Positions 12,717-38,378 of a DNA stretch of 64,000 bases are shown here, piece after piece. Position numbers and translations under genes: made by a program. The first letter of the stretch is position 1; the number at the start of each line of letters is the position of its first letter. The notes beneath the pieces were generated by a model that made no database searches, was not told where the DNA came from, and worked only from the letters and a program-made list of their open reading frames with translations. The DNA comes from an uncultured bacterium (GTDB lineage: Bacteria; Patescibacteriota; Minisyncoccia; UBA6257; GWB1-50-10). The stretch lies in contig OY970216.1 of NCBI GenBank assembly GCA_963713955.1, positions 209,934-273,933 of the forward strand, read 5' to 3'.

Positions 12717-12727
12717 TCTTGTTCAAG

Positions 12728-12764
12728 GAGGTTCAGCTTAAAAACTGAACCTCTTTTCCGTTTT
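12728..12764 (+). terminator. Terminator hairpin gaggttcag-cttaaaaa-ctgaacctc plus ttttccgtttt. Copy 1 of a repeated terminator; the second copy is at about 19070.
   Basis: Perfect 9-bp stem immediately after the BNR gene stop, then a T-run. A near-identical element (cttgttcaa[a/g]gaggttcag...ctgaacc..ttttccgtttt) recurs at 19061-19108. Confidence 0.55.
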
Positions 12765-13590: not shown

Positions 13591-13770
13591 GACAAATAGC
13601 TCCTTTCAAGCTTGAATAGTTACAAAATTATGTATACATTTTCCCGTAAACTCTGAACCCATAATGAGCAGGTAAAAAATATCAAATGATTAGGTTCTAA
13701 TAATTAGTAAATCACAAATATGAAGAAAGGTCAACTGCATTCTTCCTCGGAAGGTAATACAATCAAAACT

Positions 13771-14328: not shown

Positions 14329-15007
14329 ATACGCCACGGAAGACAGAACGCCATCCCGTATTTACCAAGCTCCTATAAGTTGCCACCTTACTCTCTGGTC
14401 TGATTTTTAATTCTCTAAGAAGACCGAGTATCCTCGATTTCGGCAAGAGTACCATATGCAAACCTTCCTTCGTAAGGAAAGTGAATTTGTCCACATTTAG
14501 TTTCTTAAAAGGAACCTTACTATTTTTTGCATAAAACATGTTTATGCAAACGTATCCTCCCCTTTTCAAAACCCTTGCCGTCTCTCCTACAGCCGCTCTC
14601 AACTCTGATAGAGAATCGACATTATGATAAATGCCATTGGCAATAATAACATTGAAGACCGAATCTTTAAAAGGGAGACGTTTCATATCGGCCATAACAA
14701 TTCTTTTATTAGTTTTATTCCTTAAATACTTTTTAGATTTTTCACGTGCACGCCGAACCATGGACTCGTGCAAATCGCAAGCCCACACGTCAAATCCCAT
14801 TTTGAGTAGTAACACGGTATTACGGCCAGCGCCACAACCTACATCTAAAACTTTCACTGACGCTGGATTTTCAAAGTTAGAAAAAAACTTTTCCCAGTAA
14901 GGAGGGGGTGGTAATAAAGAGAATTCCTCTACAATCTTAGGGTCATTCCAAAATAATTCTTCTGGGGATTTATACATTTTTAATGGCTTTGGTAACACGA
15001 TATCCAC
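14315..15007 (-). CDS. Class I SAM-dependent methyltransferase.
   Basis: 230 aa. Motif I VLDVGCGAGRNTVLLLKMGFDVWACDL, then the post-I acidic residue and motif II/III spacing. Confidence 0.7.
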   Translation of the reverse strand: MDIVLPKPLKMYKSPEELFWNDPKIVEEFSLLPPPPYWEKFFSNFENPASVKVLDVGCGAGRNTVLLLKMGFDVWACDLHESMVRRAREKSKKYLRNKTNKRIVMADMKRLPFKDSVFNVIIANGIYHNVDSLSELRAAVGETARVLKRGGYVCINMFYAKNSKVPFKKLNVDKFTFLTKEGLHMVLLPKSRILGLLRELKIRPESKVATYRSLVNTGWRSVFRGVFRKF

Positions 15008-16085
15008 CGTTCCAAATATGCGTGGAAAATGTTTTCATTCCCCTATCCCTAAAGGCCCTAATGCAAGTTCTAGGATTTTTAGTTATAGCGAATATTCCGG
15101 GTCCTACAGAAGATATTGCCAGAACATCGGCTATATTGTCTTTCTTCAAATACCTCAGGTCATCGCATAATTTGGTCAAACCGGGGTAGGTGAAAGAACA
15201 GTTTTCTATACTTCCCATTTCAAAGCGATATTTGTAAATAACATCACCTATTTTCGAGAGATCGTTACTGACCACCGATGGTAAGACCTCATGCAAGACT
15301 AGATATGCAATATCCTTTCCCCATTTTTTACCGGTAGCCACGAAGCGATGAAGATTTCTCTTTTCCATTGCCATAAGTTCCGCCGCATCAAGATCGGGGA
15401 CATCTTTCGGAATACCGATAACGACTTCGTAGCTCGCCGGTATTTTCATCTCAGCGATGGGAACACTTTCTCCGGCAAGCACTATCATTCCCGCTTTTTC
15501 TATACCACCGGCCGCCGAACCGCCGATGCACTGAACCGGAACGAGATACTCTTCATTGCCATCTATTTCCTCTCCGTGGTTTTGAGCAAGATACGTAATA
15601 AGTACCTGCCGAGGTATGGGATTCCCGTAAGCTTCATTGAACGCACAAGCCACAGCCGCGATAAGACTGCTGCTTGAACCGAGGCCGCAGTGTTTTATCT
15701 CGTTTTCGTTATCAACTTTGATATCGAATCCCTCTTTGAAACCTATAGCTCGTTTCATAAGGAAAGCCGAATGCATAATTAGTGATCGTCTCTTGGAAAA
15801 ATTATCGATAGCTATAGCGGAATCTTTACGTAGCGTTAATGTCACCTTTTTGAACAAGGGAACGACAAATAATATCTCTCCGGGGGTATACTTGAAATTC
15901 TTCTTGACGTCTATCTTACTGGGGTCTATAGCCATGGCATCAAGTCTGCTCGGATATAAAAGAACCAGCTTTCTGTACAAGAGACAGCAGCGTTTTACCT
16001 TTACTTTTATTGGATTAAAAAGGCTCCCCACTTTGAACAGTGAAGAGCCTTTAACTCTCGATAGATTTTTTTTAGTTTTGGGCAT
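14970..16085 (-). CDS. GHMP kinase family protein (beta-RFAP synthase / pantoate kinase-like). The ORF track begins with TTG at 16115; the first ATG is at 16085.
   Basis: GHMP signature HCGLGSSSSLIAAVACAF (P-x-G-S-G-L-G-SS-A-A type phosphate loop). N-terminal YPSRLDAMAIDPSKI resembles the TPSRLHFxLID start of the beta-RFAP-synthase subgroup. Overlaps the downstream methyltransferase by 38 nt. Confidence 0.55.
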   Translation of the reverse strand: MPKTKKNLSRVKGSSLFKVGSLFNPIKVKVKRCCLLYRKLVLLYPSRLDAMAIDPSKIDVKKNFKYTPGEILFVVPLFKKVTLTLRKDSAIAIDNFSKRRSLIMHSAFLMKRAIGFKEGFDIKVDNENEIKHCGLGSSSSLIAAVACAFNEAYGNPIPRQVLITYLAQNHGEEIDGNEEYLVPVQCIGGSAAGGIEKAGMIVLAGESVPIAEMKIPASYEVVIGIPKDVPDLDAAELMAMEKRNLHRFVATGKKWGKDIAYLVLHEVLPSVVSNDLSKIGDVIYKYRFEMGSIENCSFTYPGLTKLCDDLRYLKKDNIADVLAISSVGPGIFAITKNPRTCIRAFRDRGMKTFSTHIWNGGYRVTKAIKNV

Positions 16086-16644
16086 AATGCAGCTTTTGAA
16101 AGAGTATCTTGTCAAGGCTCTCCCGCAAACTTTCTAGATCACCGTTGTTCCATATGTTGAACTGGGCTATTTCACGGATAGTATTTAAGCCCATTCTGAC
16201 ATCCAGATCAAGAAGTTCGTTAAACTCGTCGTCAGAAAGATTCTTCTTCTCACGCGAGTTATAGCGTTCATGTAAAATCTTAAATGGAGCATCTAAAAAG
16301 ACAACTTGATTAGAATACCCATTGACCGATTTTATACGTTCGCTTATGAAAACTATACCACCTTTTGATCGATTGCCAACAATGACTATGTCTTTATGCA
16401 GTCTAGTTTCCTCAGCTCGCATTTTTGCCAATTTCAACTCGCAAACCAGAAGATCGTCCGTAAAGCGCTGGCCGTAATGCCTTTCCCCCTCAGTAATCCA
16501 ATCACCGAAAGAAAGATTAGTATCTTGTTTTTGGTGTATCTGTCTGAGGGTTGGCCCCGAGTCCACTGTCAAAAATCCATGTGGGGCAATTAAATTGGCG
16601 GAAAGGGTTTTGCCAGATCCATGAGGTCCTACAAGGAAGATCAT
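16072..16644 (-). CDS. P-loop NTPase, small nucleotide/nucleoside kinase-like. Start placed at MIFLVGPHGSGKT.
   Basis: Walker A IFLVGPHGSGKTLSANL. Size about 190 aa with a hydrophobic Walker B-like IVIVGNRSKGG. Resembles adenylate/dephospho-CoA-kinase-like folds. Specificity unknown. Confidence 0.5.
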   Translation of the reverse strand: MIFLVGPHGSGKTLSANLIAPHGFLTVDSGPTLRQIHQKQDTNLSFGDWITEGERHYGQRFTDDLLVCELKLAKMRAEETRLHKDIVIVGNRSKGGIVFISERIKSVNGYSNQVVFLDAPFKILHERYNSREKKNLSDDEFNELLDLDVRMGLNTIREIAQFNIWNNGDLESLRESLDKILFQKLHYAQN

Positions 16645-16821
16645 TGTCTTATTTCTCCTTTCGATTGACAAGTAAAACTTTTCCAAGAATACCACATAAA
16701 AACAATAATGTCAAAACATTTGGACTGACGATTTCAACATTGACATGCTAACAGAATTATTTAATAATAAAATTAGGCTCTTTTACAACCATCTAATCAG
16801 TCAGAAAGAAGGTGAAATACC

Positions 16822-17967
16822 ATGAGGGATACTAAAAGATCGTATCTCAGCATACCCTGCCACTGGAGCGAATCGATAATCAGTACAGTTATGAACGTCA
16901 AGCCGGTTAGAAACATTGACGTATCAGATGTATACGGAGTTATGGCAGATGGCGGGCCAGTTGGACATGGAAGGTCAAGAAACTCAGTTGTAGCTATAAG
17001 CAAAGAGCGCGCCGTAGAGTTTAGATCTTTCCTGAAACATAATGGCCTCAGATTTATTTACTTACTGAATGCTCCTTTCAGATTTGAAGGCAACGCAGAA
17101 CAGAAACAATCATTGGACAGCTATCTGGGGTGGATCATTGAAGATTTAGATCCCGATGCTGTAATGATCGCATCTCATGAACTAATGCGTTACGTAAGAG
17201 CTATCAACGAGCAAACTCCAATTCACATATCTACGATTGCCGGCGTCAGAAACAAAAAGGACCTCGTGAAATACTTAGATATAGTTCCCAGCCGCGTGGT
17301 TCTACACCATGATACCGGGAAAGAATTGGAAACGTTGCTGGAATTAGTGCAGTTCTGCCTTAGTGAAGGCATTGAAATTGAACTAATGGCAACAGAAAGT
17401 TGTTTGTTTCATTGTCCAGATAGGCAAAATCATTACGAATCGTTGGCGCATGGTCGTGAGGATAAGCCGTTTCATTCCGTATGTAACGCGAAGAAACTCA
17501 GTCATCCTCGCGAATTTCTTATGTCAGGCGGAACAATACGCCCAGAGGACATCGAGATCTACGAGGACATCGGTATCCATCATTTCAAAATCACTGGCCG
17601 TTCTAAACCAGCAGATTGGCTTCCGGATGTTGTACGAGCCTACAAGATAAGAGAATACAGAGGCAATCTAATCCGCCTGCTTGGCATAGATCCGCTCATC
17701 CACGCCGAGGATTGGATTTACATTGAAAATTCAGCCCTTTCTGGTTTTACAAAAGAACTGCTTGGCGCAAAATCACATCGCGAGAAGATAGCCTGTGCCG
17801 AAAGGTGGATTACCAAACTTTATGCATCTGGACAATTCAAGCTATTGGACGGTTCAGAATACGTGAATAAAGGTAACTATCTCGATTTACTCTCTTGCGG
17901 CAGAATGTCTGACTCGATTATTAACTGCTCTCAGCAAGAAAGTGATCAGTCAATACACCCCGGATGA
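16822..17967 (+). CDS. Hypothetical protein, possibly U32-peptidase-like TIM-barrel protein (low confidence). An alternative start is at 16891.
   Basis: 381 aa. Layout (IYLLNAPFRFEGNAEQKQSLDSYLGWIIEDLDPDAVMIASHELMRYV...IHISTIAGVRN...VVLHHDTGKELE...CLFHCPDRQ) is compatible with the U32 family architecture, but no diagnostic motif was confirmed. Confidence 0.3.
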   Translation: MRDTKRSYLSIPCHWSESIISTVMNVKPVRNIDVSDVYGVMADGGPVGHGRSRNSVVAISKERAVEFRSFLKHNGLRFIYLLNAPFRFEGNAEQKQSLDSYLGWIIEDLDPDAVMIASHELMRYVRAINEQTPIHISTIAGVRNKKDLVKYLDIVPSRVVLHHDTGKELETLLELVQFCLSEGIEIELMATESCLFHCPDRQNHYESLAHGREDKPFHSVCNAKKLSHPREFLMSGGTIRPEDIEIYEDIGIHHFKITGRSKPADWLPDVVRAYKIREYRGNLIRLLGIDPLIHAEDWIYIENSALSGFTKELLGAKSHREKIACAERWITKLYASGQFKLLDGSEYVNKGNYLDLLSCGRMSDSIINCSQQESDQSIHPG

Positions 17968-18011
17968 TGGCGATATCATTCGGGGTTGTCTATATAAACA
18001 ATATCCTCGTT

Positions 18012-18704
18012 TTACCGCTTCGCTACCTTTTTCGCAGTAGCGTCTGCAAAGATCTTCATCGTATCGTAAATTTTTAATCTTGGATGACGAGGAATCAATA
18101 ATTGTAAATCTGTGCAAGCCAATATTACATGCTCTATCCCCCTTTGCTCAAAACTGTTAATAATATCTACTAACTTTTTTCTGTCTTGATGGCCATGTTT
18201 ATTTGAGACTAAATGGTAAATTATCTCACCGATTTTAGCCTGTTCGTAATCATGGGGGATAACTTGCTCTATATCGTTCTTGACAAGGAACTTTTCGTAC
18301 AACTTTTTATTCAAGGTTATCCTGGTGGAAATAATTCCAACCCTAGAGATACCTTCTTCTTTCAAGAATTTTACCGTTTCTTCAATTATACTGAGTACGG
18401 GAATTTTGACTGAATTCCTAATGTCTTCAATAAAGGTATGTAAAGTATTGCACGGCATTGCTAAGAAATCAGCACCGGCAATTTCTAATCTTCTTGCGGC
18501 ATCTAGGATAAACGGATGGCACCTTTCTTCGCCAATCCCTTTTACAATTGCATCTTCTTCAACATCGTAGGGCAATGGAACGCTATAAATCAGAATCGGG
18601 GGCCTATTAATCTTGTTTAAATCCTGGCATCGAGAAATCAACTCTAAATAAAACTTGGAAGTTGTTTCAGGACCCAACCCACCTATTATGCCGACCGTTT
18701 TCAT
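18012..18704 (-). CDS. Aspartate/glutamate racemase family protein (Asp racemase-like).
   Basis: 230 aa. MKTVGIIGGLGPETTSKFYLELI (GIIGGMGP motif), two catalytic Cys contexts AMPCNTLHTF and ILACTDLQLL. Confidence 0.8.
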   Translation of the reverse strand: MKTVGIIGGLGPETTSKFYLELISRCQDLNKINRPPILIYSVPLPYDVEEDAIVKGIGEERCHPFILDAARRLEIAGADFLAMPCNTLHTFIEDIRNSVKIPVLSIIEETVKFLKEEGISRVGIISTRITLNKKLYEKFLVKNDIEQVIPHDYEQAKIGEIIYHLVSNKHGHQDRKKLVDIINSFEQRGIEHVILACTDLQLLIPRHPRLKIYDTMKIFADATAKKVAKR

Positions 18705-18726
18705 ATTTTTATTTATTGTCTGTCTA

Positions 18727-18909
18727 TTCTATCACAAAAACCGAAAACATAATTTCCATTGAAGGTGGCGACACTTTTCTCCGGTGTACAACAAACATCC
18801 CGGAAATTACGTTGCTACGTTTAACGGCAGCAAATTCGCAAGCGGTCTATACTTCTACCGCCTGCAAGCTGACGATCTTTCTCTTACCAAGGAAATGATC
18901 TTGATGAAG
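18727..18909 (+). pseudogene. Relic C-terminal fragment of a T9SS C-terminal-sorting-domain protein. Truncated, with an internal deletion.
   Basis: In-frame translation ...FSPVYNKHPGNYVATFNGSKFASGLYFYRLQADDLSLTKEMILMK* aligns to the last ~35 aa of the 11418 and 26777 gene products (SPGTYEASFDGTSLPSGTYIYRLQTD...KKMVLLK). An upstream in-frame TGA and no N-terminal body. About 150 nt downstream lies a copy of the terminator repeat. Confidence 0.6.
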
Positions 18910-19069
18910 TAGTTTCGAAAAGTCCGTGCGCTTCGCACCTCCGGGCTTTTCTGCGTTTACGCGGCTTGTTTCCTCCTTCCCCTAATTTCTCCAAAACTAT
19001 CCTTATACCACGATCGTGGTGTTAGGGGAGATTTTGGAATCATCCGCCTGTGAAGTGACCTTGTTCAAA

Positions 19070-19108
19070 GAGGTTCAGTCCTAAAAAACTGAACCCCTTT
19101 TCCGTTTT
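19070..19108 (+). terminator. Copy 2 of the gaggttcag...ctgaacc hairpin plus ttttccgtttt terminator repeat.
   Basis: ttgttcaaagaggttcag-tcctaaaaaa-ctgaacccc-ttttccgtttt. Compare with 12721-12764. Confidence 0.5.
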
Positions 19109-19319
19109 ATATACTAATATTTGGCCTCCCGCTCTCCATATACTAATACCCCCAGCAAAATTCGCCTTAACTATTGATGTCCGACGTCAATAGATTGTGG
19201 TTGCTTTAGAATTCCGCCTCCGCGCAAAGAGCTATGCGCAAAAGTGAGGCGCTATAACTAATCATAGCGCCCAATATATACTTGTTTTTCAGTAAATTTA
19301 ATGATATTATTGAAACAAT

Positions 19320-19535
19320 ATGAGCCGACAATTTACCGCCATTTATAAAAAGACCGGGAAATGGTATTCTGCTTGGGTAGAAGAAATTCCCGGCGTTAAT
19401 ACTCAAGGCCGCACACTAAAAGAAGCCAAAGAAAATCTCAAGGAAGCTCTGGTGCTTGTTTTAGAAACGAGTAAACTTTTGGTCAAAAGCTCTGATTCTA
19501 AGGTTTTAAGAGAACCGATTTCCGTGTCTTTATGA
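19320..19535 (+). CDS. hicB: HicB-family antitoxin (UPF0150 fold), cassette 1.
   Basis: 71 aa. FTAIYKKTGKWYSAWVEEIPGVNTQGRTLKEAKENLKEALVLVLE matches the HicB N-terminal domain pattern (..Y.A.VPELPGC.TQG.TLEEA..N.KEAI.L.LE). The sigma70-like promoter ttgttt-N17-tattat is directly upstream. Confidence 0.7.
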   Translation: MSRQFTAIYKKTGKWYSAWVEEIPGVNTQGRTLKEAKENLKEALVLVLETSKLLVKSSDSKVLREPISVSL

Positions 19536-19723
19536 AGAGGCGCGAACTTGTGAATCGTATCATGAAGCAAGGTTGCGTTTTTGTACGCGAGGGCGCTAAG
19601 CATAGCGTCTTTTTTAATCCCGAAACAAAAAGAATTTCGACGGTACCGCGTCATCAGGAAATCAATAATTTCTTAGCCGAGAAAATCTGTCAGGACTTGG
19701 GCATACCAAAGTCGAGGAAATAG
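19532..19723 (+). CDS. hicA: HicA-family mRNA interferase toxin, cassette 1.
   Basis: 63 aa. KRRELVNRIMKQGCVFVREGAKHSVFFNPETKRISTVPRHQEI fits HicA (YcfA-like: K..E..K.L...G....R..GSH..F.HP.....TVP.H). Overlaps hicB by 4 nt. Confidence 0.75.
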   Translation: MKRRELVNRIMKQGCVFVREGAKHSVFFNPETKRISTVPRHQEINNFLAEKICQDLGIPKSRK

Positions 19724-19810
19724 CGGCTACGGCTGGTTCTCGTTCAACTCGAGTGATGTCCAGGGATGCTCACGAAGTAATACTCAGTGTCAGCCAATCG
19801 TCAGCTTAAT

Positions 19811-20284
19811 ATGAACACCTATTTGAAGAAGTTCATCGACTCCGAGTTTGACAGACCAGGTAAGGCGTTGGATCTGGGGGCGGGAGATTTTTTTGACGTG
19901 GTTTGCCTAAAGCAGCTGAAATGGCAATGCGAAGGCGTAGATATAAAGACCGGCGTTGACTTAGAGAAGCCCTACCTTTCTCCAAGGAGACCGTTTGATC
20001 TTGTTTATTCCAACTACTTAATCCACAAACTCAAGAACAAAAAGCAACTTATCAAGACAGTATTCAACAATTTAAAAAGCGGGGGTTGGTTTTTCCTCCA
20101 CACTTTTGACAAGTCAGATCCTAACAGCCGGTCAACTATTACTGCTAAGTCTATAGAAAATCTATTGAACAAAGAAAGTTTTAAAAGCATTGGCACGCGG
20201 ATTTTCAGCTATTACGATAATGAAGAGGGCCACAAGCATTGGCATAGGATTCTGGAGGTTACCGCGCAGAAACAAGAAGCATAA
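19811..20284 (+). CDS. Small class I SAM-dependent methyltransferase. Start at MNTYLKKF; the ORF track gives 19787.
   Basis: Motif I ALDLGAGDFFDVVCL. Motif-IV-like SGGWFFLHTF. About 158 aa. Confidence 0.6.
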   Translation: MNTYLKKFIDSEFDRPGKALDLGAGDFFDVVCLKQLKWQCEGVDIKTGVDLEKPYLSPRRPFDLVYSNYLIHKLKNKKQLIKTVFNNLKSGGWFFLHTFDKSDPNSRSTITAKSIENLLNKESFKSIGTRIFSYYDNEEGHKHWHRILEVTAQKQEA

Positions 20285-20422
20285 AATGGGAGAAGGCTGA
20301 TACCTGCATCAGCCTTTTGAACTTCTTATTTGCCCGCGTGGTTTCACCACTGTTCCGGGCTTTTCTGCATTTAATGGAGCCACTATTGACAATTTTATTT
20401 CCACGCTTTAGTATACTAAAGT

Positions 20423-20725
20423 ATGAAAGAACAAGATAAATGGATGAATAGGAATAGCGACGCACTTTTTGAGGCCATTCTTAGGCTTAGGAATCTCAAT
20501 GAAACCAGGAGATTCTTCAGGGATCTCATGGCCGAGAAGGAAATCGCTGAATTCAGTAACCGGTGGAAGGCTGCGCGGATGCTTAACCAAAAGATGTCCT
20601 ACAAAAAGATAGCCAAGGAGACCGGCTTGAGCTCGACGACTATCGCACGAGTACAGAAGTGGCTCAAGGGGAATCTGGGCGGTTACCGGCTAATATTGAG
20701 AAGATCAGGACAGAACTATTTATGA
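20423..20725 (+). CDS. YerC/YecD-family TrpR-like DNA-binding protein.
   Basis: 100 aa. LFEAILRLRNLNETRRFFRDLMAEKEIAEFSNRWKAARMLNQKMSYKKIAKETGLSSTTIARVQKWLKGNLGGY is the characteristic YerC/YecD signature (HTH ...TG.S.ATIARV). A promoter-like ttgaca..N..agtatact lies upstream. Confidence 0.7.
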   Translation: MKEQDKWMNRNSDALFEAILRLRNLNETRRFFRDLMAEKEIAEFSNRWKAARMLNQKMSYKKIAKETGLSSTTIARVQKWLKGNLGGYRLILRRSGQNYL

Positions 20726-21264
20726 AAAAGTTACCAAGAAAGTTACAAATAGGCGTTGTGGGATCAGCCGCCGATCTGAAATACTCAAAGAAGATGCAGA
20801 GTATAGCTTATGAGGTAGGGAAAATGATTGCAGAGAGCGGGGCGATAGTGGTTTATGGCGCCGAGAAGGATTATGACTCCCTTTCCACGGCCGCTGCGAG
20901 GGGTGCAAAGGAAGCAGGCGGGATAACCGTTGGCATCACCTATGGGAGGGGGAAAAATATTTGGGACAAGAGTGGCTCGGCAAGTATCGTCATTGTAACA
21001 GGTGTTGAGCGAGGAGGGGGTAGGGAATTTGTCCTCGTGAACTCGTGTGATGTGATTATTGTTATATCAGGAGGATCGGGGACGCTCACCGAGATGGCGA
21101 TGGCGTACCAAATGGATATCCCTATCATCGCTGTAGCGGGGACTGGTGGATGGGCTGATAAGCTCGCTGGTAAGTATATAGATAAACGAAGACGACTAAG
21201 AATCTTGAAAGCAAGAACGCCTCGGCAAGCGGTAATATCAGCTCTCAATGTCGCAAGAACTTGA
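20722..21264 (+). CDS. LOG-family / TIGR00725-like Rossmann-fold nucleotide-binding protein. Start at MKKLPRK; the ORF track gives 20659.
   Basis: IGVVGSAADLKY..., VVYGAEKDYDS, and ISGGSGTLTEMAMAY (LOG PGGxGTxxE motif). About 180 aa. Confidence 0.55.
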   Translation: MKKLPRKLQIGVVGSAADLKYSKKMQSIAYEVGKMIAESGAIVVYGAEKDYDSLSTAAARGAKEAGGITVGITYGRGKNIWDKSGSASIVIVTGVERGGGREFVLVNSCDVIIVISGGSGTLTEMAMAYQMDIPIIAVAGTGGWADKLAGKYIDKRRRLRILKARTPRQAVISALNVART

Positions 21265-21273
21265 GAGCCCTCA

Positions 21274-22047
21274 ATGATTACTCCCCGCCAGAAACAAGTT
21301 CTCTTCATTGCCTGCACGCACGGCAACGAACCGATAGGGAAATTGGCAGTTGAGGGACTTTTGAAAAACAAAAATCTGTCGCGAAAATTCGATTGTGTCA
21401 TCGGGAACCCCAGGGCGTACGCTAGAAATATTCGCTTTACAGACTCTGATCTCAACCGATCTGCGCCTGGCAGGCAATACTCGAAAAAATATGAGGTGAG
21501 ACGCGCCTTTCAACTGATCCAGCTTTTCAAGAGGTACCGATACGTTATCGATCTCCATCAAACCAGGGCGAATAATCGGATAGTAGTCATTATTCCAAAG
21601 CTTACCCGCCGTTCTCTGGCGCTTGCTCTGGCCTTTGACGTAAGGGATGTTCTCATCTGGCCATCATCGTCCTCATTAAAATCACGACTCAGGCCGCTCA
21701 CCGAGTACAAAGACTATGGTATAGAGATAGAATCCGGGATCAAAGCAAATCCACGAAAAACCTTAATGAAGCTTACAGTGATCGTCTATGATTTCCTCAT
21801 GAAAGATTCGGGAGCGATATCGACAAACCTTGAAGATTTGAAGGAAAAAATTTGCAAGAGAAAGTTTTATTTAGTTTATGATCGCATTGGTATAGAGGAC
21901 ATTCAAGGTGCCACAGTCGAGGATTTCAAAGAGGTGGATACGGGAGAGAAAAAGTACATTGCTTTGCTCTTTGGGAGACGTCAGGGATTGATCGGATATA
22001 AGATGCGCCGCGTGAGTGAAAAGTGGATCAGTAATTCCATTTCTTAA
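21274..22047 (+). CDS. Succinylglutamate desuccinylase / aspartoacylase (AstE-AspA) family zinc hydrolase.
   Basis: 257 aa. N-terminal LFIACTHGNEPIGK (GxHGNExxG zinc-ligand motif) and the DLHQT second metal-ligand context. Confidence 0.65.
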   Translation: MITPRQKQVLFIACTHGNEPIGKLAVEGLLKNKNLSRKFDCVIGNPRAYARNIRFTDSDLNRSAPGRQYSKKYEVRRAFQLIQLFKRYRYVIDLHQTRANNRIVVIIPKLTRRSLALALAFDVRDVLIWPSSSSLKSRLRPLTEYKDYGIEIESGIKANPRKTLMKLTVIVYDFLMKDSGAISTNLEDLKEKICKRKFYLVYDRIGIEDIQGATVEDFKEVDTGEKKYIALLFGRRQGLIGYKMRRVSEKWISNSIS

Positions 22048-22049
22048 TC

Positions 22050-22805
22050 ATGGAATCCGGCAAGACAATCACCATCCTCTCGACTTTTACCGAGGATATA
22101 CTTGTGAACGAAGAAGGGGAAGTGATCAGGAAACAAAGAGGAGGACCGGCATTTTATCTCGAGCGGACCTTCAGGCGTGAGAAAGTAACGTCAGTTTTAA
22201 AGACTGGTCCCGAGATGGAAGTCAAAATCCTTGTGGCAAAAACAGGAGAGCTTGGCATGGTTTCACGGGGGTCGTCACCACAGAAAGTAAGATTCTCGGA
22301 CCTCAAAACACCATTTCTCCTTATTTCCACAGTGTTAAACGAATTTGATCTGACCGAGCTTCCGCAGTTCAGAGGATTTGTATTTCTCGATGTTCAAGGC
22401 TATGTAAGAAACGGCAGTCGTTTTGGAAAGAAGAAGCTATGGCGTCCCACCAATAGGGTGTTTAGCAGTATTTTCTGCCTCAAGGGCACTGGAGAAGAAT
22501 TGAAGAGTTTACCGGATCACTATCTTGAGACTCAAAGGGGAAAAATTCTCATAACCACGAATGGTAAAAGTGGTTGTGAAATTTTCACCTTCGGTAAACG
22601 TGATGTTGTAAAACCGAAAAGAATTGTCGTGACAGGAAACACGGTAGGGGCCGGCGATACATTTTTCGCTAATTTTATTTCCCATTTTACGAGGACAATG
22701 GATGCCTCCGTTAGTGCCAGGTACGCCGTGAAGGAAACCTCAGTTTTCCTCTCCGCAATAAGTTCGTGTAATCTTAAATGCAATCACCCTAATGAAACAA
22801 GATAG
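22050..22805 (+). CDS. PfkB-family carbohydrate/nucleoside kinase (ribokinase-like).
   Basis: 251 aa. N-terminal GGPAFYLE (GG motif) and C-terminal VVTGNTVGAGDTFFANFIS (DTxGAGDxF anion-hole motif). Confidence 0.7.
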   Translation: MESGKTITILSTFTEDILVNEEGEVIRKQRGGPAFYLERTFRREKVTSVLKTGPEMEVKILVAKTGELGMVSRGSSPQKVRFSDLKTPFLLISTVLNEFDLTELPQFRGFVFLDVQGYVRNGSRFGKKKLWRPTNRVFSSIFCLKGTGEELKSLPDHYLETQRGKILITTNGKSGCEIFTFGKRDVVKPKRIVVTGNTVGAGDTFFANFISHFTRTMDASVSARYAVKETSVFLSAISSCNLKCNHPNETR

Positions 22806-23504
22806 CAAGCTTATCATTTTTGATCTCGATGGGACTATCTATAAATTGGACGGCGGGTCTTATAAAAAATCCTCTTTACGGAGGGGCGTGTTGCGGAACG
22901 CAGTCAAATTCATCGGAGAAAGACTGTCTAGAAGTGAGGTAGAGGCTCAGAATGTACTCCGGACCATTAAAAAGAAATATGGTGAACAGATAAGTATCGG
23001 ATTGGAGAGAGAGTTTGGAATCGATCGCCATGATTACTTCAATACTGTTTGGGACATTCCGGCCCGTGATCTTGTTACAAAGAAAGACAGCGGGCGAAAA
23101 ATCCTACTAGCCCTGAGAAGGGAGTATGAAATGGCGCTTGTGTCTGATGCCCCACGTGTTTGGATAAACAACGTTCTAAAAGAGTTGGGAATTAAAACCT
23201 CTTTAGCGGTATGGTATTCTCTGGCGAGGGGAACCGACGCAAGGGTTTTGGTAATACTTTTGCGGATATCACACGAACTCTAAAAACCTCTCCACAAGAT
23301 TGTATTGTTATCGGTGATCAAGAGAATACAGACATTGTTCCTGCAAAGAGACTCGGCATGTACACTATCTTCGTCAGCCCAAAAAAACGTTCTCTCATAG
23401 CCGATGACACTATTTCATCCATTCGCGAACTCCCGGCGGCACTTAGAGCTGAGGCTCTTTTTAACTTCAACGAAAATCTACCAAAGGAAATTTTATTGCA
23501 GTGA
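22792..23504 (+). pseudogene. HAD-superfamily hydrolase split into two overlapping reading frames (22792-23283 and 23211-23504). Either a genuine frameshift pseudogene or an assembly indel.
   Basis: Frame A: MKQDSKLIIFDLDGTIY (HAD motif I DxDGT) ... ALVSDAP ... LKELGIKTS. Frame B continues ...FSGEGNRRKGFGNTFADI...CIVIGDQENTDIVPAKRLGMYTIFV (motif III Lys and IV GDxxxD). A single-base frame change near 23196-23215 would fuse them. Confidence 0.5.
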
Positions 23505-23699
23505 CTTTTGAAAAAACCCGCATGGTTTCACCACTGTTCCGGTTTTTCTGCGTTTACGCGGCTTGTTTCTCCCGCCAGCAGGCTCTTCGGTTTTCAAAAT
23601 TCCACCCTCGCGCAAAAGCTATGCCTGAAAGTGGGATGCTACAGTTAACTGTAGCAGCTCGGATTTCTCAGACTATGCCGCGTTTGCATTTGAACGAGC

Positions 23700-23963
23700 T
23701 TGTTGTATAATCTAGAAATGGCCAAGAAACAGCAGTTCAAAATTCTTATCGAGCAAGGTGATGACGGAATGTTTGTTGGGAGCGTTCCTTCCTTGCCTGG
23801 TTGTCATACGCAAGCTAAGACCCTCCCCGAGCTGAAGAAACGGATTCGGGAAGCGATTGAACTCTGTCTTGAAGTTGCCAAGGAAGATGCCAGCTACCGG
23901 GCGAGAATAAAACAGTTTGCTTACGAACCGACCTTCGTTGGCCTTGAGATGGTCAGCGTATGA
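23700..23963 (+). CDS. hicB: HicB-family antitoxin, cassette 2.
   Basis: 87 aa. FKILIEQGDDGMFVGSVPSLPGCHTQAKTLPELKKRIREAIELCLE is textbook HicB/UPF0150. Promoter ttgcat-N17-tataat lies 8 nt before the ATG (near-leaderless). Confidence 0.8.
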   Translation: MLYNLEMAKKQQFKILIEQGDDGMFVGSVPSLPGCHTQAKTLPELKKRIREAIELCLEVAKEDASYRARIKQFAYEPTFVGLEMVSV

Positions 23964-24187
23964 GCAGGCATCTACCTGTCTTGAAAGCAAAGGATGTTAT
24001 AAAGATTTTGAGAAAGCTGGGCTTTTATGAGGTGCGAACGAAAGGTTCGCACGTCTTTTTCAAGCATCCTGATGGCAGAGTGACGTTAGTCCCCGTGCAT
24101 AGGAGAGAAAATATAGGCAAAGTGCTCTTACATCAAATCATGAGAGAGGTTAAGATTACGCCTGAAGAATTCTCTAAGTTGTTATAA
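23960..24187 (+). CDS. hicA: HicA-family toxin, cassette 2.
   Basis: 75 aa. KAKDVIKILRKLGFYEVRTKGSHVFFKHPDGRVTLVPVHRRENIGKVLLHQIMREVKIT is the canonical HicA/YcfA signature. 4-nt overlap with hicB. Confidence 0.8.
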   Translation: MSRHLPVLKAKDVIKILRKLGFYEVRTKGSHVFFKHPDGRVTLVPVHRRENIGKVLLHQIMREVKITPEEFSKLL

Positions 24188-24522
24188 ATCCCTGCGGCTA
24201 CGGTTGGCTCTCTCTTTTCTCTTCAAGAGCTTCTTTGTTGAAAGAAATTTGGCAATCGGTTTCGCGCAGTTGGGACAAAAATCATAACTATCAAAACCAA
24301 TGCCGACGGAGATTGCTTCCCTCAGCTTCCTTAAACTCTTCCGACAGATATCACACTTGCGGATGATCATATCTTTTCTCTCGTGCAAGCAATTATACCA
24401 CGCCAAGATTTTTTTTCGAGGCCCTGTGGCTATGGTTTTCGAACAGCGCCGTTGGAGGATTCTTGGATTGCTCGTCGCCTCGGTGAAAACTCAATCTTCG
24501 TTTGCAAAGAGGCTAACAATGC

Positions 24523-25326
24523 TTAGCCTCTCTTTTTGTTTTTCTTCTGACAAATAAAAACCATTTGCTCGCTACCGGGTTTATACGGTTTCAGGCTGAA
24601 GTCGCCATAAACTTTTACCGGATACAAACCGACTTTTTCCAGTAAGGACTGTATTTCTATAAAATCTGCTTGATACCCAGATGCTGGATAATGCCAACGC
24701 CGAGTAACACTGTTAGCGTTTAAAATTTCCATAAAATAATGTATTTGAAAGATACGTCTCGCGGGAACCTGTATTGCGGAAAAAAGATTCCAAGTTTCAC
24801 TTTTTATTACCCGTGAGAAATGATATCTCACGGCATATTCCCTAGACAGATCATTAGGCGAGAACAGATCGAGAACAAATAGACCATTTTCATCGAGGTG
24901 CTCCGCTATGTTCTTGAGAGCTTTGTATTGTCTTTGTTGTATCTCTTCTGGTGAATAATATGCGTCGCCCTTCTGGGCAAGATATGCCAGACTATCAAAA
25001 GGCAGGAAAATGAGCTTGAATCGCTTGTTTCTAAACAGGGAGGAGGAAAACTCGACTAGATCGTCTTTGAAAATTTTAACTTTTCTGCCAGCTTTTAATG
25101 TTTTAACTTTTTTCCTGGCAATATCCAACATCGCAGCATTAGTATCGAAGCCCCAAATCTCCTTACCCGATTTCGCTATGGGAGCGAGAATACGACCAGC
25201 TCCGCAAGCACATTCCAATATCGGTCCATTAACCTTCTGAGCCAGGCGATAATAGAAATCTACATCATCTTTTTTATTCTCGTACTCCAGATCGTAAAAT
25301 TTTGCGTAAAGCTGCTCTCTGTTCAT
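24523..25326 (-). CDS. Class I SAM-dependent methyltransferase. Start at MNREQLYAKFY; the ORF track gives 25380.
   Basis: Motif I ILECACGAGRILAPIAKSGKEIWGFD, acidic DLVEF, motif-II-like LIFLPFDSLAY. Confidence 0.7.
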   Translation of the reverse strand: MNREQLYAKFYDLEYENKKDDVDFYYRLAQKVNGPILECACGAGRILAPIAKSGKEIWGFDTNAAMLDIARKKVKTLKAGRKVKIFKDDLVEFSSSLFRNKRFKLIFLPFDSLAYLAQKGDAYYSPEEIQQRQYKALKNIAEHLDENGLFVLDLFSPNDLSREYAVRYHFSRVIKSETWNLFSAIQVPARRIFQIHYFMEILNANSVTRRWHYPASGYQADFIEIQSLLEKVGLYPVKVYGDFSLKPYKPGSEQMVFICQKKNKKRG

Positions 25327-25454
25327 AACAGTTTTATTATACCAATAAAAGCCGAACGAACAATGAAGATATTCCACCACTCCTCATACTAAGAAGTGAT
25401 GGAGTATAAAAAGGCAGAAAAGTCCGGAGGTGCTAAGCACACGGACTTTTCGTA

Positions 25455-26777
25455 TCACTTCAAAAGCAGCATCTTCTTCGTCAGTGACAACCCATCAGAG
25501 GTTGTCAGACAATAGAAGTATGTGCCCGACGGAAAGTGACTTCCGTCGAACTGTACGACACGAATTCCTGGAGAAACAGTACCGTCCACCAATGTCGCTA
25601 CTTCTTGCCCGAGAACATTGTAAACCTTGAGGGTCACAAATGTTCTCAAAGCAACCGTATAGCTGATCGTCGTGGTCGGGTTGAACGGGTTCGGGTAGTT
25701 CTGGTTCAGGGTGAAGCCGTAGGGCTGGTTTGTTGTCGCATGGACTGCGGTTATAACACCATCGACACGCCACAGACCATTGGTAGTGCCGACGAGAAGC
25801 GAATGATTCTGAATCGCCAGACTCATCACTCCGATGGGAATGCCATTGATGCTATTTGGTACTACTTGCGTCCATCGTGCTCCGTCGTATTTGAATACAC
25901 CACCAGTTGCCGATCCCTGCCCACTGAAGCCGACGAAAATGGTATTCTTCTGGCCCACGAGAATAGTGGTCGCCTCTTTCTGAGACGAATCTATTCCTGT
26001 GATTTTCGTCCAGGTACCGCCGTTATCAATCGACTGATACACACCATCACCGGTACCGGTGAATGGGTTTCCGGTTCCGGCGTATAGGACACCGTTACTG
26101 TCAGCAGCTATGGCCTCAACATCTTGGAAGTTGATACCATTATCACTAGGCTGCCACGTTTTCCCTTCATTGGTGGAACAGAAAACGCTCGCACTATTCG
26201 CAATATTAACTGTCCCAGCAAAGATGAAACCTCTCGTATACACCAGAGTATTCACATACAGCGTGCTATCGTAGAAGATAGTTTTCCAATTTTCGCCGCC
26301 ATCAAATGATTGTAGGATGCCACCAGAAATGCCAGCCATAATTGCATCTCCTCTGATCAGGAAACATGTGATTGACGCACTATGCTTCCACGTTGTATAG
26401 GGTGACGGTGGAGAAGGTTGGGTCCAGCTTGAACCATTGTCGGTGGAACGGAATAACCCGTTCACGGTCCCGACAAGTATAGCGTTGGTCTTGGGATCGC
26501 GAACGACCGCATAGCTATAACGAGACCACCAATCGAGATTGATAGGCAATTGGGTCCATACTGCACCGTCATCCGTCGTCTGCATTATGCCCATATCAGC
26601 GGTAGCGGCAAGTATGTCATTGCTATCGCCGTCAACCCATAGTGAATTGACATTGATGCTCTGACCTATAAGACTGTCCGGCCAGATGTACGAGTAGGAA
26701 ACAGACGTACTGGATTGGCTTCTCGCGGACGAGATGCCAATCAGTACGGCTGCGAGAAACAATCCAATATTTTTCAT
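25455..26777 (-). CDS. Second BNR/Asp-box repeat beta-propeller protein with a T9SS C-terminal sorting domain. Start at MKNIGLFLAAVLIG.
   Basis: Signal peptide. Asp-box repeats (TTDDGAVWTQ, STDNGSSWTQ, SFDGGENWKT, STNEGKTWQP, SIDNGGTWTK). C-terminus LNQNYPNPFNPTTTISYTVALRTFVTLKVYNVLGQEVATLVDG...SGTYFYCLTTSDGLSLTKKMLLLK. 32 nt of the CTD coding sequence are identical (inverted) to gene 11418. Confidence 0.75.
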   Translation of the reverse strand: MKNIGLFLAAVLIGISSARSQSSTSVSYSYIWPDSLIGQSINVNSLWVDGDSNDILAATADMGIMQTTDDGAVWTQLPINLDWWSRYSYAVVRDPKTNAILVGTVNGLFRSTDNGSSWTQPSPPSPYTTWKHSASITCFLIRGDAIMAGISGGILQSFDGGENWKTIFYDSTLYVNTLVYTRGFIFAGTVNIANSASVFCSTNEGKTWQPSDNGINFQDVEAIAADSNGVLYAGTGNPFTGTGDGVYQSIDNGGTWTKITGIDSSQKEATTILVGQKNTIFVGFSGQGSATGGVFKYDGARWTQVVPNSINGIPIGVMSLAIQNHSLLVGTTNGLWRVDGVITAVHATTNQPYGFTLNQNYPNPFNPTTTISYTVALRTFVTLKVYNVLGQEVATLVDGTVSPGIRVVQFDGSHFPSGTYFYCLTTSDGLSLTKKMLLLK

Positions 26778-26872
26778 TTTCAACTCCTTTCTAAACTCTA
26801 TTATAACATAAATGCTCAATCTTTGCAACAAAAAGGCGATACGGTAAAAGAATATATGCTATAATACAAGAA

Positions 26873-38371: not shown

Positions 38372-38378
38372 GCATAAG

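What the first reader, a model, noticed from the sequence alone, without database searches (positions are those of the whole stretch)
23515..24215. HicB-HicA cassette, copy 2, ending at a near-exact 21-nt match to the GYGWLSF repeat of the 9145 surface-protein gene
Immediately after the hicA stop (24187) lies ccctgcggctacggttggctctctc. This matches 21 of 22 nt of tgcggctacggttggctctcgttc at 10747-10770, which is codons CGYGWLSF inside gene 9145. Together with copy 1, this gives two independent TA cassettes, each abutting the same short coding repeat. That argues for site-specific recombination or homology-driven capture rather than coincidence.
Basis: seen in the sequence. Interest (0 to 1): 0.55.

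Follow-up and report, generated by a model that had tools for sequence, protein, structure and literature searches.

The report
hicBA modules abutting truncated surface-protein genes
The 21-base match is real: it is the stump of a cut-off copy of a surface-protein gene that lies directly after a toxin-antitoxin pair. The same toxin-to-stump junction occurs in related Patescibacteria genomes, so it marks an old, reused insertion slot, not a recombinase target.

Summary
hicB2 (23718-23963) and hicA2 (23960-24187) are followed by CTGCGGCTACGGTTGGCTCTC (24192-24212). This is identical to 10749-10769 inside gene 9145-11295, at codons CGYGWLS, with 0 matches expected by chance. Copy 1 (hicBA 19320-19723) abuts a similar stump.

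The window comes from a Patescibacteria (CPR) genome. In relatives, the GYGW gene, a BNR/Por_Secre_tail gene, a large adhesin-like gene, comFC and pilM are contiguous. Here about 14 kb of low-GC DNA (about 12.8-26.9 kb) splits that order, and both hicBA copies lie inside it.

Each copy sits in the same kind of slot. On the left is the terminator and intergenic DNA normally found after BNR genes. On the right is a 5'-truncated GYGW gene that starts at the motif.

The slot predates this genome. One relative has the orthologous hicBA1 junction with a 198-codon truncated gene still intact. Another has the same truncated paralogue behind a different hicA. That ORF shows dN/dS of about 0.08 between the two relatives.

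No recombinase, att-like, dif-like or attC-like structure was found. The most likely mechanism is cassette turnover by homologous recombination at multicopy native flanks, but this is inferred. Why three unrelated hicA types end within about 6 nt of the motif is unresolved.

The parts
23512..23572 (+). Left repeat, copy 2: an A-tract/hairpin/T-tract terminator-like element followed by the 26-mer TTTTCTGCGTTTACGCGGCTTGTTTC.
   Evidence: The 26 nt at 23544-23569 are exact to 18947-18972, and 20 nt are exact to 20339-20358. The fold is shown. It belongs to the same family as the terminator of BNR gene 25455-26831(-).
23589..23657 (+). Conserved intergenic block with the palindrome TGCTACAGTTAACTGTAGCA, shared with copy 1 (19199-19272).
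   Evidence: Local alignment scores 39, against 16.7 +/- 2.2 for 500 shuffles, at about 75% identity. The equivalent hairpin element (CCGCCCTCC...GTGCTACAAA..TTTGTAGCAC) lies downstream of BNR genes and upstream of hicB in L129/L133.
23683..23711 (+). Promoter-like site for hicBA2: TTTGCA, 17-nt spacer, TATAAT.
   Evidence: Consensus scan only.
23718..23963 (+). hicB2 antitoxin, 81 aa.
   Evidence: Pfam HicB_lk_antitox 2e-08 and UPF0150 6e-07.
23960..24187 (+). hicA2 toxin, 75 aa.
   Evidence: Pfam HicA_toxin 4e-19. Its closest relatives are 72% identical and lie in other Patescibacteria, in other genomic contexts.
24189..24212 (+). Stump of a 5'-truncated GYGW-family gene: CCC TGC GGC TAC GGT TGG CTC TC, encoding PCGYGWLS.
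   Evidence: 21 nt are exact to 10749-10769. It shares the GGT codon only with window gene 9145 and site 24419; all other family copies seen have GGC.
24182..24406 (-). Small CxxC...CxxC (zinc-ribbon-like) ORF lying between the two motif copies. It has its own promoter-like site at 24419-24392.
   Evidence: No Pfam or NCBIfam hit.
24419..24445 (+). Second, decayed stump: CCC TGT GGC TAT GGT T..TTC(G)AAC. It differs from the first stump only at synonymous positions over PCGYG.
   Evidence: An 18-mer with at most 2 mismatches is expected about 0.003 times in the window by my calculation.
18784..18912 (+). Stump of the 3' end of a BNR/T9SS-tail gene, the last 42 codons (...GLYFYRLQADDLSLTKEMILMK*).
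   Evidence: tblastx to the tail of the L132 and L129 BNR genes.
18917..18972 (+). Left repeat, copy 1: terminator-like hairpin plus the 26-mer.
   Evidence: It is 92% identical over 39 nt to 25414-25452(-).
19053..19108 (+). Second BNR-gene terminator relic, a copy of 12711-12764.
   Evidence: It is 89% identical to 12711-12764. The element is conserved after the BNR genes of L131 and L132 and before the large gene in L130.
19199..19272 (+). Conserved intergenic block, copy 1, with hairpin GGCGCTAT..ATAGCGCC.
19273..19723 (+). hicBA1 cassette: promoter, hicB1 (19320-19535) and hicA1 (19532-19723).
   Evidence: Pfam. It is 85.5% identical at the DNA level to L133 3234-3709, and the match runs through the junction.
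19725..19765 (+). Stump of the y-type truncated GYGW gene (GYGWFSFNSSDV...).
   Evidence: It is orthologous to the 198-codon truncated ORF of L133/L129 and the 66-codon one of L126.
20325..20375 (+). Left repeat, copy 3. It follows a methyltransferase gene and is not next to a TA module.
9145..11295 (+). Intact GYGW-repeat surface-protein gene (716 aa, N-terminal TM segment, InlB B-repeat domains). The motif lies at 10749-10769.
   Evidence: Orthologues sit at the syntenic position in L062, L131 and L132.
11418..12765 (+). BNR/Sortilin + Por_Secre_tail gene (BNR-1) and its terminator.
25395..26831 (-). BNR/Sortilin + Por_Secre_tail paralogue (BNR-2) with a terminator of the left-repeat family.
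   Evidence: terminator fold z = -5.8.
12770..26870 (.). Roughly 14-kb low-GC segment. It interrupts the gene order GYGW gene, BNR gene, large adhesin-like gene (26873-29812), comFC(-), pilM that is contiguous in relatives L131 and L132.
   Evidence: GC is 0.39-0.46 here, against mostly 0.50-0.60 downstream and 0.43-0.51 upstream. Synteny is shown.

Best explanation
What it is. The 21-mer after hicA2, and the roughly 35-nt match after hicA1, are the 5'-most remains of truncated paralogues of the surface-protein gene 9145. They are not recognition sites.

The slot. This Patescibacteria lineage has a variable region next to its type IV pilus/competence locus. Within that region, hicBA toxin-antitoxin pairs occupy a recurring slot. 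The left wall of the slot is the terminator and intergenic DNA that normally follows a BNR/Por_Secre_tail gene. The right wall is a GYGW-family gene whose first 1.6 kb or so is missing, so that it begins at the CGYGWLSFN codons.

Age. The slot is older than this genome, because it is present in at least two related genomes. In this window it occurs twice, and the truncated gene has decayed to 7-14 codons.

Likely mechanism (inferred). Both walls are native sequences present in several copies per genome and conserved across the clade. DNA taken up from relatives can therefore recombine at them, swapping or spreading the hicBA cargo without any dedicated recombinase. This is the logic of a minimal mobile element. 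The hicBA pairs would act as addiction modules that help the variable region persist.

Shown: the junctions, the homologies, the synteny, the selection signature and the absence of recombinases among the ORFs scanned.

Inferred: recombination at the walls as the turnover mechanism, transformation as the route, and stabilisation as the role of hicBA.
For: Stump identity. The match is in the GYGW reading frame. Copies differ mainly at synonymous positions: TAC/TAT, GGT/GGC, AAC/AAT, AGT/TCC.

Inherited junction.
- L133/L129/L143 carry a HicA that is 86% identical to HicA1. Its TAG stop is followed directly by GGC GGC TAT GGC TGG..., and the 9145-like frame then runs 198 codons to its natural end, followed by a BNR gene.
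- L126 (=L078) has a different, frameshifted hicA. Its TAA stop is followed by AAC TGC GGC TAC GGC TGG and 66 codons of the same y-type paralogue. That stretch is 75% identical at the protein level to the L133 copy.
- Between those two copies dN/dS is 0.08 and pS is 0.68.

Synteny and hotspot. L131 and L132 have GYGW gene, BNR gene, large gene, comFC and pilM contiguous. The window has a 14-kb insert at that point, L128/L129 have about 5 kb of other cargo, and L130 has further cargo including a Y1_Tnp gene.

Left wall is native BNR-downstream DNA.

Cargo is more similar than core. hicBA1 plus junction is 85.5% identical to L133, against 71-77% for the pilM, pilB, pilT and pilC genes.

No recombinase was found among the roughly 50 window ORFs scanned with Pfam, including the larger ORFs of the 12.8-26.9 kb island.

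The locus adjoins comFC and type IV pilus genes. Natural competence has been shown experimentally for Saccharibacteria (PMC10633639).

Precedents: hicAB was first described as an insertion in the H. influenzae pilus gene cluster (PMC11594946). hicAB sits at structural-variation hotspots in ANME-1 (PMC13385816). Minimal mobile elements are exchanged through conserved flanks (PMC3787668).
Against: Three non-orthologous HicA types end 0-6 nt before the same codons: HicA1, HicA2, and the L126 type, which is 25% identical to HicA2 and has no detectable match to HicA1. Flank-mediated exchange can move a cassette that already sits in a slot. It does not explain how each type first came to lie exactly there.

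No donor with the hicBA2 cassette in this slot was found; the nearest relatives are only 72% identical and lie in other contexts.

The truncated ORF in relatives is under strong purifying selection and has no conserved start codon. A simple decaying relic would not show this.

Recombination and transformation in this lineage are inferred, not observed.

The contig of L126 ends just upstream of its hicA, so its left wall is unknown.
Confidence: 0.55

Rival explanations
1. Targeted insertion. hicBA cassettes are mobilised by a trans-acting enzyme encoded outside the window, for example an HUH/Y1 transposase or a tyrosine recombinase. That enzyme recognises the CTGCGGCTACGG...-type DNA of GYGW genes, so several different hicBA cassettes have landed independently at the same nucleotide positions.
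For: Three unrelated HicA types sit at junctions that differ by only 0-6 nt.

The 16-nt core CCCTGYGGCTAYGGTT is directly repeated on both sides of the small zinc-ribbon gene, as after a site-regenerating insertion.

A 248-aa Y1_Tnp gene lies at the syntenic hotspot in L130, and a Y1_Tnp fragment lies next to a HicA2-like cassette in L135.

The left repeat contains CTGCGTTTACG, which resembles CTGCGGCTACG at 9 of 11 positions (my inspection).
Against: No such enzyme was found among the window ORFs scanned.

The two cassettes share no internal end sequences; all conserved DNA lies outside the cargo.

The motif has no dyad symmetry.

The 5' half of the gene is never found upstream.

About 17 intact family genes show no insertion.

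Related hicBA cassettes abut recO, T4SS genes or a T9SS-tail stump instead.

At least the copy-1 junction is inherited, not new.
Confidence: 0.12
2. Functional truncated gene. The 5'-truncated GYGW copy is kept on purpose. It could be a promoterless silent cassette that donates or receives sequence by gene conversion with the expressed surface-protein gene, giving pilS-like antigenic variation. Alternatively it could be a third gene of the hicBA operon, translated by readthrough or reinitiation at the hicA stop. Under either version hicBA stabilises it, and the window's two stumps are decayed versions.
For: dN/dS is 0.08 over 64 codons between the L133 and L126 copies, with an in-frame indel only.

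The 198-codon ORF in L133 is intact although the junction is at least as old as the 14.5% DNA divergence of its hicBA from the window's copy.

The first 8 codons after the stop differ only synonymously between L133 and L126.

The hicA stop is in frame with the truncated ORF in both genomes where the ORF is intact.

Allele L143 is mosaic: 96.5% identical to L133 for 742 nt, then unrelated.

The GGT codon is shared by three motif copies within the window genome only, which suggests intragenomic conversion.
Against: There is no conserved start codon. The truncated product would have no signal peptide. The cut falls inside the repeat domain, not at a domain boundary.

In-frame in 2 of 2 cases has a chance probability of 1 in 9.

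In this window the stumps are 7-14 codons long and out of frame, so nothing functional is left here.

No intact y-type expression gene was seen in any locus.

The selection signal could be imported by conversion from intact paralogues.
Confidence: 0.2
3. Single ancient junction with no cassette turnover. One hicBA was placed next to the motif once, the unit was duplicated, and the hicBA copies simply diverged.
For: The copy-2 junction and the L126 junction lie directly upstream of the same large gene in their genomes. Both read TAAA[A/T]C(CC)TGCGGC, which is compatible with one ancestral junction. The flanks of copies 1 and 2 are homologous.
Against: HicA1 and HicA2 are 28% identical. Each has relatives at 70-79% identity scattered across other Patescibacteria lineages, so they are old, separate subfamilies. 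The flanks are 75-100% identical while the cargo shows no DNA similarity, which is incompatible with co-divergence.
Confidence: 0.05
4. Coincidence, a common simple motif, or an assembly chimera at a repeat.
For: The 19-mer occurs in 105 unrelated genomes, mostly as GYGWLS codons in GC-rich genes.
Against: No matches were found in 100 shuffles of the window.

The junction is reproduced in independent assemblies: the 804-kb contig and Logan contig L001 for the window, and NCBI L128, ENA L129, L133 and L143 from different samples for the relative.

The homology extends in frame beyond the motif.
Confidence: 0.02

Closest known systems
Minimal mobile elements and integration hotspots (Neisseria MMEs; Saunders & Snyder 2002, as described in PMC3787668)
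   Same: The content between conserved flanks varies among close relatives. There is no self-mobility gene. Exchange is presumed to occur by homologous recombination in the flanks after DNA uptake. The region lies in a lineage with competence and type IV pilus genes.
   Different: The flanks here are not single-copy core genes. They are multicopy sequences: a gene-family terminator/intergenic element and an internal coding motif of a truncated surface-protein paralogue. The cargo is always a hicBA pair, and the right-hand boundary is fixed to within about 6 nt.
hicAB at the Haemophilus influenzae hif pilus cluster (first description of hicAB, PMC11594946) and hicAB at structural-variation hotspots in ANME-1 (PMC13385816)
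   Same: A HicAB-family module is inserted beside a pilus or surface-structure gene cluster and is associated with local insertions, deletions and gene remnants.
   Different: The gene order here is hicB then hicA. The organism is Patescibacteria. The distinctive feature, a repeated junction with one coding motif of a truncated adhesin-like gene, is not mentioned in the passages of those papers that I read.
Toxin-antitoxin cassettes in chromosomal integron arrays
   Same: Small TA operons are scattered through a variable array, each followed by a short conserved sequence, and are presumed to stabilise the array.
   Different: No IntI was found. The conserved sequence is a coding-gene stump with no attC-like imperfect palindrome or R''/R' cores. 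The cassettes carry their own promoters. Neighbouring genes are on both strands.
Silent cassettes of antigenic-variation systems (Neisseria pilS, Anaplasma msp2 pseudogenes); comparison from general knowledge
   Same: These are promoterless, 5'-truncated copies of a surface-protein gene. In relatives the copies remain open reading frames under purifying selection and have mosaic alleles.
   Different: No expression-site variation has been shown. There is only one truncated copy per relative as far as could be seen. The window's copies are too short to donate sequence. Adjacency to a TA module is not a feature of those systems.

Membership tests
HicAB type II toxin-antitoxin | Toxin with a HicA (dsRBD-like) domain, including the conserved His. 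| tested here: met
   PF07927 scores 4e-19 for HicA2 and 9e-10 for HicA1. The motifs KGSHVFF and GAKHSVFF are visible in the translations.
HicAB type II toxin-antitoxin | Adjacent antitoxin with the HicB N-terminal fold, in one operon. | tested here: met
   PF15919 and PF21748 hits. The genes overlap by 4 nt (ATGA) in both copies. A promoter-like site lies upstream of hicB2.
HicAB type II toxin-antitoxin | HicA toxicity that is neutralised by HicB. | not testable with these tools
   This needs expression experiments.
Integron gene cassette / attC | An IntI tyrosine recombinase with attI nearby. | tested here: not met
   No recombinase domain was found among the roughly 50 window ORFs scanned. 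The rest of the 804-kb genome was not searched.
Integron gene cassette / attC | A 3' attC site: an imperfect inverted repeat with RYYYAAC ... GTTRRRY cores. | tested here: not met
   The sequence after each hicA is a coding stump without dyad symmetry. GTTCAAC is present in copy 1, but there is no partner core or hairpin downstream.
IS200/IS605-type or REP/RAYT element | Conserved subterminal hairpins at both element ends, shared by all copies, plus a Y1 transposase. | tested here: not met
   The two cassettes share no DNA between the left block and the motif. There is no Y1_Tnp in the window; one is present only in relatives L130 and L135.
Xer/dif (pdif-type) modules | Flanking 28-bp sites with two inverted 11-bp arms around a 6-bp spacer. 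| tested here: not met
   The motif CCCTGCGGCTACGGTTGGCTCTC has no inverted arms (inspection).
Minimal mobile element / recombination hotspot | Variable gene content between the same conserved flanks in close relatives. | tested here: met
   The window, L128/129, L130, L131 and L132 differ in content between the BNR gene and the large gene. Different hicA types sit at the same junction.
Minimal mobile element / recombination hotspot | No self-encoded mobility function. | tested here: met
   for the window ORFs that were scanned.
Minimal mobile element / recombination hotspot | Exchange by homologous recombination in the flanks. | tested here: inconclusive
   The cassette plus junction is 85.5% identical to L133, against 71-77% for core genes, and the homology stops at the native flanks. 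No donor-recipient pair was observed.
Silent cassette for antigenic variation | A promoterless truncated copy maintained as an ORF. | tested here: inconclusive
   Met in relatives: 198 codons intact and dN/dS 0.08. Not met in the window, where only 7-14 codons remain and they are out of frame.
Silent cassette for antigenic variation | Sequence exchange with an expressed full-length locus. | not tested
   Only hints exist: the mosaic allele L143 and the GGT codon shared within the window genome. No y-type full-length gene was found.

The most novel reading that the evidence does not exclude
In a clade of Patescibacteria, hicBA plus a 5'-truncated surface-protein gene may form a conserved functional unit. 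The truncated gene begins exactly at the hicA stop codon. It is in frame with that stop in both genomes where the ORF is intact, and it is kept under strong purifying selection (dN/dS about 0.08).

Two functions are conceivable. It could be a silent donor or recipient cassette for recombinational variation of a cell-surface protein. Or it could be a product made by readthrough or reinitiation after hicA.

Under this reading the TA pair guards the unit, and TA types are swapped in and out of a fixed docking position.
Probability: 0.15. Interest if true: 0.65.

Novelty: new variant of a known kind. Interest (0 to 1): 0.4.

Why it matters
Patescibacteria have tiny genomes, and little is known about how they vary their surface proteins or acquire genes. 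This locus shows a concrete, comparable architecture: a hotspot beside the pilus/competence genes where accessory DNA accumulates, with hicBA pairs sitting at a fixed boundary made of native multicopy sequence.

If flank-mediated exchange is confirmed, it would show gene-content turnover in this group without mobile-element enzymes. If the truncated gene proves functional, it would be an early candidate for a recombination-based surface-variation system in the group.

For this genome scan the practical lesson is that a short coding repeat next to a TA module is most simply a gene stump in a rearrangement hotspot, not an att site.

Tried and rejected
Integron/attC reading: rejected. No IntI was found, there is no attC structure, and the cassettes have their own promoters.

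dif/Xer modules and IS200/IS605 ends: rejected on sequence architecture.

Known RNA or tRNA-fragment att site: Rfam at gathering threshold on the whole window, and at E-value threshold on 18.6-24.7 kb, gave nothing relevant. There are no tRNAs.

Genome-wide mapping of the motif: the genome-contig scan with GCGGCTACGGYTGGYTCTC returned 105 loci. Most were unrelated GC-rich genes, and 5 were family genes, one with a hicA junction. The source species itself was not among the hits.

Metagenome scan with a degenerate GYGW[LF]SFN pattern: only 19 loci, about 12 of them intact family genes, and no new junction.

Search for the left wall of the L126/L078 slot: the contig ends just upstream of hicA.

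Search for the 5' half of the gene upstream of hicBA in L133: methyltransferase and rSAM genes were found instead.

Search for an intact y-type gene: none in any fetched locus.

Representative-library search with the C-terminal 182 aa of gene 9145: only 28 hits. There were no HicA fusions and one further truncated y-type ORF, P0278 = L143.

PADLOC and NCBIfam: no known defence system beyond a weak HicA-like hit. The methyltransferase hits are below the curated cut-offs.

Comparison of the two methyltransferases next to the stumps: unrelated.
Full report
**1. Checking the observation**

The region reads as described. hicB2 (23718-23963, 81 aa) overlaps hicA2 (23960-24187, 75 aa) by 4 nt. Pfam gives HicB_lk_antitox at 2e-08 and HicA_toxin at 4e-19.

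After the TAA stop comes ATCC CTGCGGCTACGGTTGGCTCTC. A self-comparison of the window shows an exact 21-nt repeat, 24192-24212 = 10749-10769. None of 100 dinucleotide-preserving shuffles gave a 22-mer match with up to 3 mismatches.

At 10750 the sequence is TGC GGC TAC GGT TGG CTC TCG TTC AAC. This encodes CGYGWLSFN in the frame of ORF 9145-11295, a 716-aa protein with an N-terminal membrane segment and InlB B-repeat domains.

Copy 1 is also real. It comprises hicB1 (19320-19535) and hicA1 (19532-19723). Its TAG stop is followed by C GGC TAC GGC TGG TTC TCG TTC AAC TCG AGT GAT, which encodes GYGWFSFNSSD.

The two TA pairs are far apart in sequence. The toxins are 28% identical, and the antitoxins are 39% identical over 38 aa.

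**2.

The left sides of both cassettes are conserved as well.
- A terminator-like hairpin with A and T tracts, followed by the 26-mer TTTTCTGCGTTTACGCGGCTTGTTTC, lies at 18917-18972 and at 23512-23572.
- A third copy lies at 20325-20375, next to no TA module.
- A fourth is the terminator of the BNR/Por_Secre_tail gene 25455-26831 on the minus strand.

A block of about 55 nt ending in a hairpin precedes both hicB promoters, at 19199-19254 and 23589-23641. Its alignment score is 39, against 16.7 +/- 2.2 for shuffles.

Upstream of copy 1 there are two relics of BNR-gene 3' ends. One is the last 42 codons of a T9SS-type tail (18784-18912). The other is a copy of the terminator of gene 11418-12716, at 19053-19108, which is 89% identical to 12711-12764.

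Downstream of copy 2, a small zinc-ribbon-like ORF on the minus strand has its own promoter-like site. It is bracketed by the motif and by a second, decayed copy, CCCTGTGGCTATGGTT at 24419-24436. That copy differs from the first only at two synonymous positions.

About 50 of the window's larger ORFs were scanned with Pfam, including the large ORFs of the 12.8-26.9 kb island. None has an integrase, transposase or recombinase domain. There is no tRNA and no Rfam match.

**3. Organism and synteny**

PilM (30697-31989) finds relatives named Patescibacteria, Jorgensenbacteria and Paceibacterota, and the source contig is 804,691 bp long.

In relatives L131 and L132 the order GYGW gene, BNR/Por_Secre_tail gene, large Flg_new_2/fn3 gene, comFC(-), pilM is uninterrupted.

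In the window the same order is split between 12.77 and 26.87 kb by about 14 kb of DNA at GC 0.39-0.46. The flanks are mostly 0.50-0.60 downstream and 0.43-0.51 upstream. Both hicBA copies and all the relics lie inside this segment.

The same position holds about 5 kb of other cargo (rSAM enzymes) in L128/L129. In L130 it holds yet other genes, including a Y1_Tnp gene. The position is therefore a hotspot.

**4. The junction exists in relatives**

A genome-collection scan for the 19-mer returned mostly unrelated GC-rich genes. It also returned five true family genes, and one of these, L078, has a hicA stop directly before AAC TGC GGC TAC GGC TGG.

L078 (=L126) is syntenic with the window at 70-73% DNA identity. 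Its hicA and stump sit directly upstream of the orthologue of gene 26873-29812.

A closer relative (L128/L129; PilM 76% identical) has a HicA that is 86% identical to HicA1. Its TAG stop is followed by GGC GGC TAT GGC TGG CTG TCG TTC AAT. There the 9145-like frame continues for 198 codons to the normal C-terminus and is followed by a BNR gene.

Contig L133, from the same organism in another sample, shows what lies upstream of hicBA. It is a methyltransferase, an rSAM-SPASM gene and a copy of that genome's own BNR-downstream intergenic element. It is not the 5' half of the GYGW gene.

The window and L133 are 85.5% identical from 19273 to 19747. That stretch covers the promoter, hicB, hicA, the junction and the motif, and it ends at the native flanks on both sides. 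The core pilus genes of the same two genomes are 71-77% identical.

**5. The truncated gene in relatives is not simply decaying**

The L133 and L126 copies belong to one paralogue, which I call y-type. They are 75% identical to each other at the protein level but only about 42-49% identical to gene 9145.

Over 64 codons they differ with pS = 0.68, pN = 0.13 and dN/dS = 0.08, plus one in-frame indel. The first eight codons after the hicA stop differ only synonymously.

In both genomes the hicA stop is in frame with the truncated ORF. A strain variant, L143, is 96.5% identical to L133 for 742 nt and then unrelated in the last 180 nt or so, so it is a mosaic allele.

No intact y-type gene was seen anywhere. 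In the window the y-type stump after hicA1 is down to about 14 codons, and the stump after hicA2 to 7 codons. The hicA2 stump shares the GGT codon only with the window's own gene 9145 and with the 24419 copy.

**6. Tests of a specific link between hicBA and the motif**

Related cassettes elsewhere do not carry the motif.
- A 79%-identical HicA1 relative (L134) is followed by a stump of a T9SS-type tail.
- 71%-identical relatives are followed by recO.
- HicA2 relatives (67-72% identical) lie next to T4SS genes or between copies of a different repeat.

Conversely, about 17 intact GYGW-family genes in genomes and metagenomes have no insertion at the motif. The association is therefore confined to this clade and this hotspot.

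**7. Interpretation**

The 21-mer is a gene stump. Each hicBA sits in a slot. The left wall of the slot is native BNR-downstream DNA, and the right wall is a GYGW gene truncated at the CGYGWLSFN codons.

The slot predates the divergence of the window genome from at least two relatives.

Three points favour turnover of cassettes by homologous recombination at these multicopy, clade-conserved walls:
- the cargo differs (three HicA types) while the walls are conserved;
- hicBA1 plus its junction is more similar between genomes than the core genes are;
- no recombinase was found among the ORFs scanned.

Turnover probably follows DNA uptake. The locus adjoins comFC and pilus genes, and competence has been demonstrated in Saccharibacteria (PMC10633639). 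This is the logic of minimal mobile elements (PMC3787668). It also echoes the original description of hicAB as an insertion in a pilus gene cluster (PMC11594946) and the location of hicAB at structural-variation hotspots (PMC13385816).

The mechanism is inferred, not shown.

**8. What remains unexplained**

Flank-mediated exchange does not explain how three unrelated hicA genes each came to end within about 6 nt of the same codons.

It also does not explain why the truncated ORF stays under purifying selection in relatives. Three explanations are possible for that: a function for the truncated gene (silent cassette or readthrough product), conversion from intact paralogues, or recurrent targeted insertion. 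I rate these readings at about 0.2 for a functional truncated gene and 0.12 for targeted insertion. Conversion from intact paralogues is compatible with my main explanation and is not rated separately.

**9. Verdict**

In kind, this is a variant of known hotspot or minimal-mobile-element behaviour with TA cargo. Its unusual features are a sharply defined boundary and an apparently selected truncated surface-protein gene. Interest is moderate.

Noticed in passing
window 42164-42206 (+), 45376-45418 (inverted), 47461-47497 (+): A 37-43-nt repeat, AAAAAAGTGGGTAAGACTTGGCCTAGCGGCCCGGAGCGCACAC, occurs three times in both orientations near the DNA ligase and neighbouring genes. It may be a REP- or MITE-like element or a shared terminator.
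   Followed up: no
window 33203-33222, 33626-33645, with inverted partners at 33327-33341 and 33741-33757: The short repeat CTAATCCCTCACCCTTCGAG and its reverse complement form paired inverted repeats in the intergenic regions between the pilO-like and pilB genes.
   Followed up: no
window 11418-12716 (+) and 25455-26831 (-); L128-L132: BNR/Sortilin proteins in a Patescibacteria genome carry a Por_Secre_tail (T9SS type-A sorting) domain, and this is conserved in relatives. T9SS sorting tails are characteristic of Bacteroidota-type diderms, so their presence here is unexpected.
   Followed up: partly
window 22792-23283 and 23211-23504: A HAD-family hydrolase is split into two overlapping ORFs. 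This is either a frameshifted pseudogene or a sequencing error, and it lies directly upstream of the copy-2 left repeat.
   Followed up: no
L133 472-2875; L129 3118-7560; window 24182-25380 (-): Hotspot cargo in relatives looks RiPP-like: a small peptide ORF, an rSAM-SPASM enzyme and a methyltransferase. The window methyltransferase 24523-25380(-) has a sub-threshold hit to the daptide-type RiPP methyltransferase and sits next to the small zinc-ribbon ORF.
   Followed up: partly
L130 6172-6918 (-); L135 3390-3626: A 248-aa Y1_Tnp (HUH transposase-like) gene sits exactly at the syntenic hotspot in one relative. A Y1_Tnp fragment lies just upstream of a HicA2-like cassette in a distant Patescibacteria contig.
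   Followed up: partly
L135 about 3650-3680 and 4240-4270; L137 about 5250-5280: HicA2-like cassettes in distant Patescibacteria are flanked by a different short repeat, GG(T/G)GTCAACTCTATTTTT. This suggests that hicBA cassettes sit between repeats in other lineages too.
   Followed up: no
L134 2382-2470: A hicBA pair 79% identical to hicBA1 is followed directly by the last 26 codons or so of a T9SS-type tail (..SGIYIYRLQAGSFTQTRKMVLVK*). This is another case of hicA abutting a 5'-truncated surface-protein gene, but a different gene.
   Followed up: partly
window 37985-39986: Several adjacent pilin-like genes share near-identical N-terminal coding segments, with 26-47-nt exact repeats such as GAAATGCTCGTCGTGATCGCGATGAT. 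This is consistent with prepilin leader and N-methylation regions.
   Followed up: no
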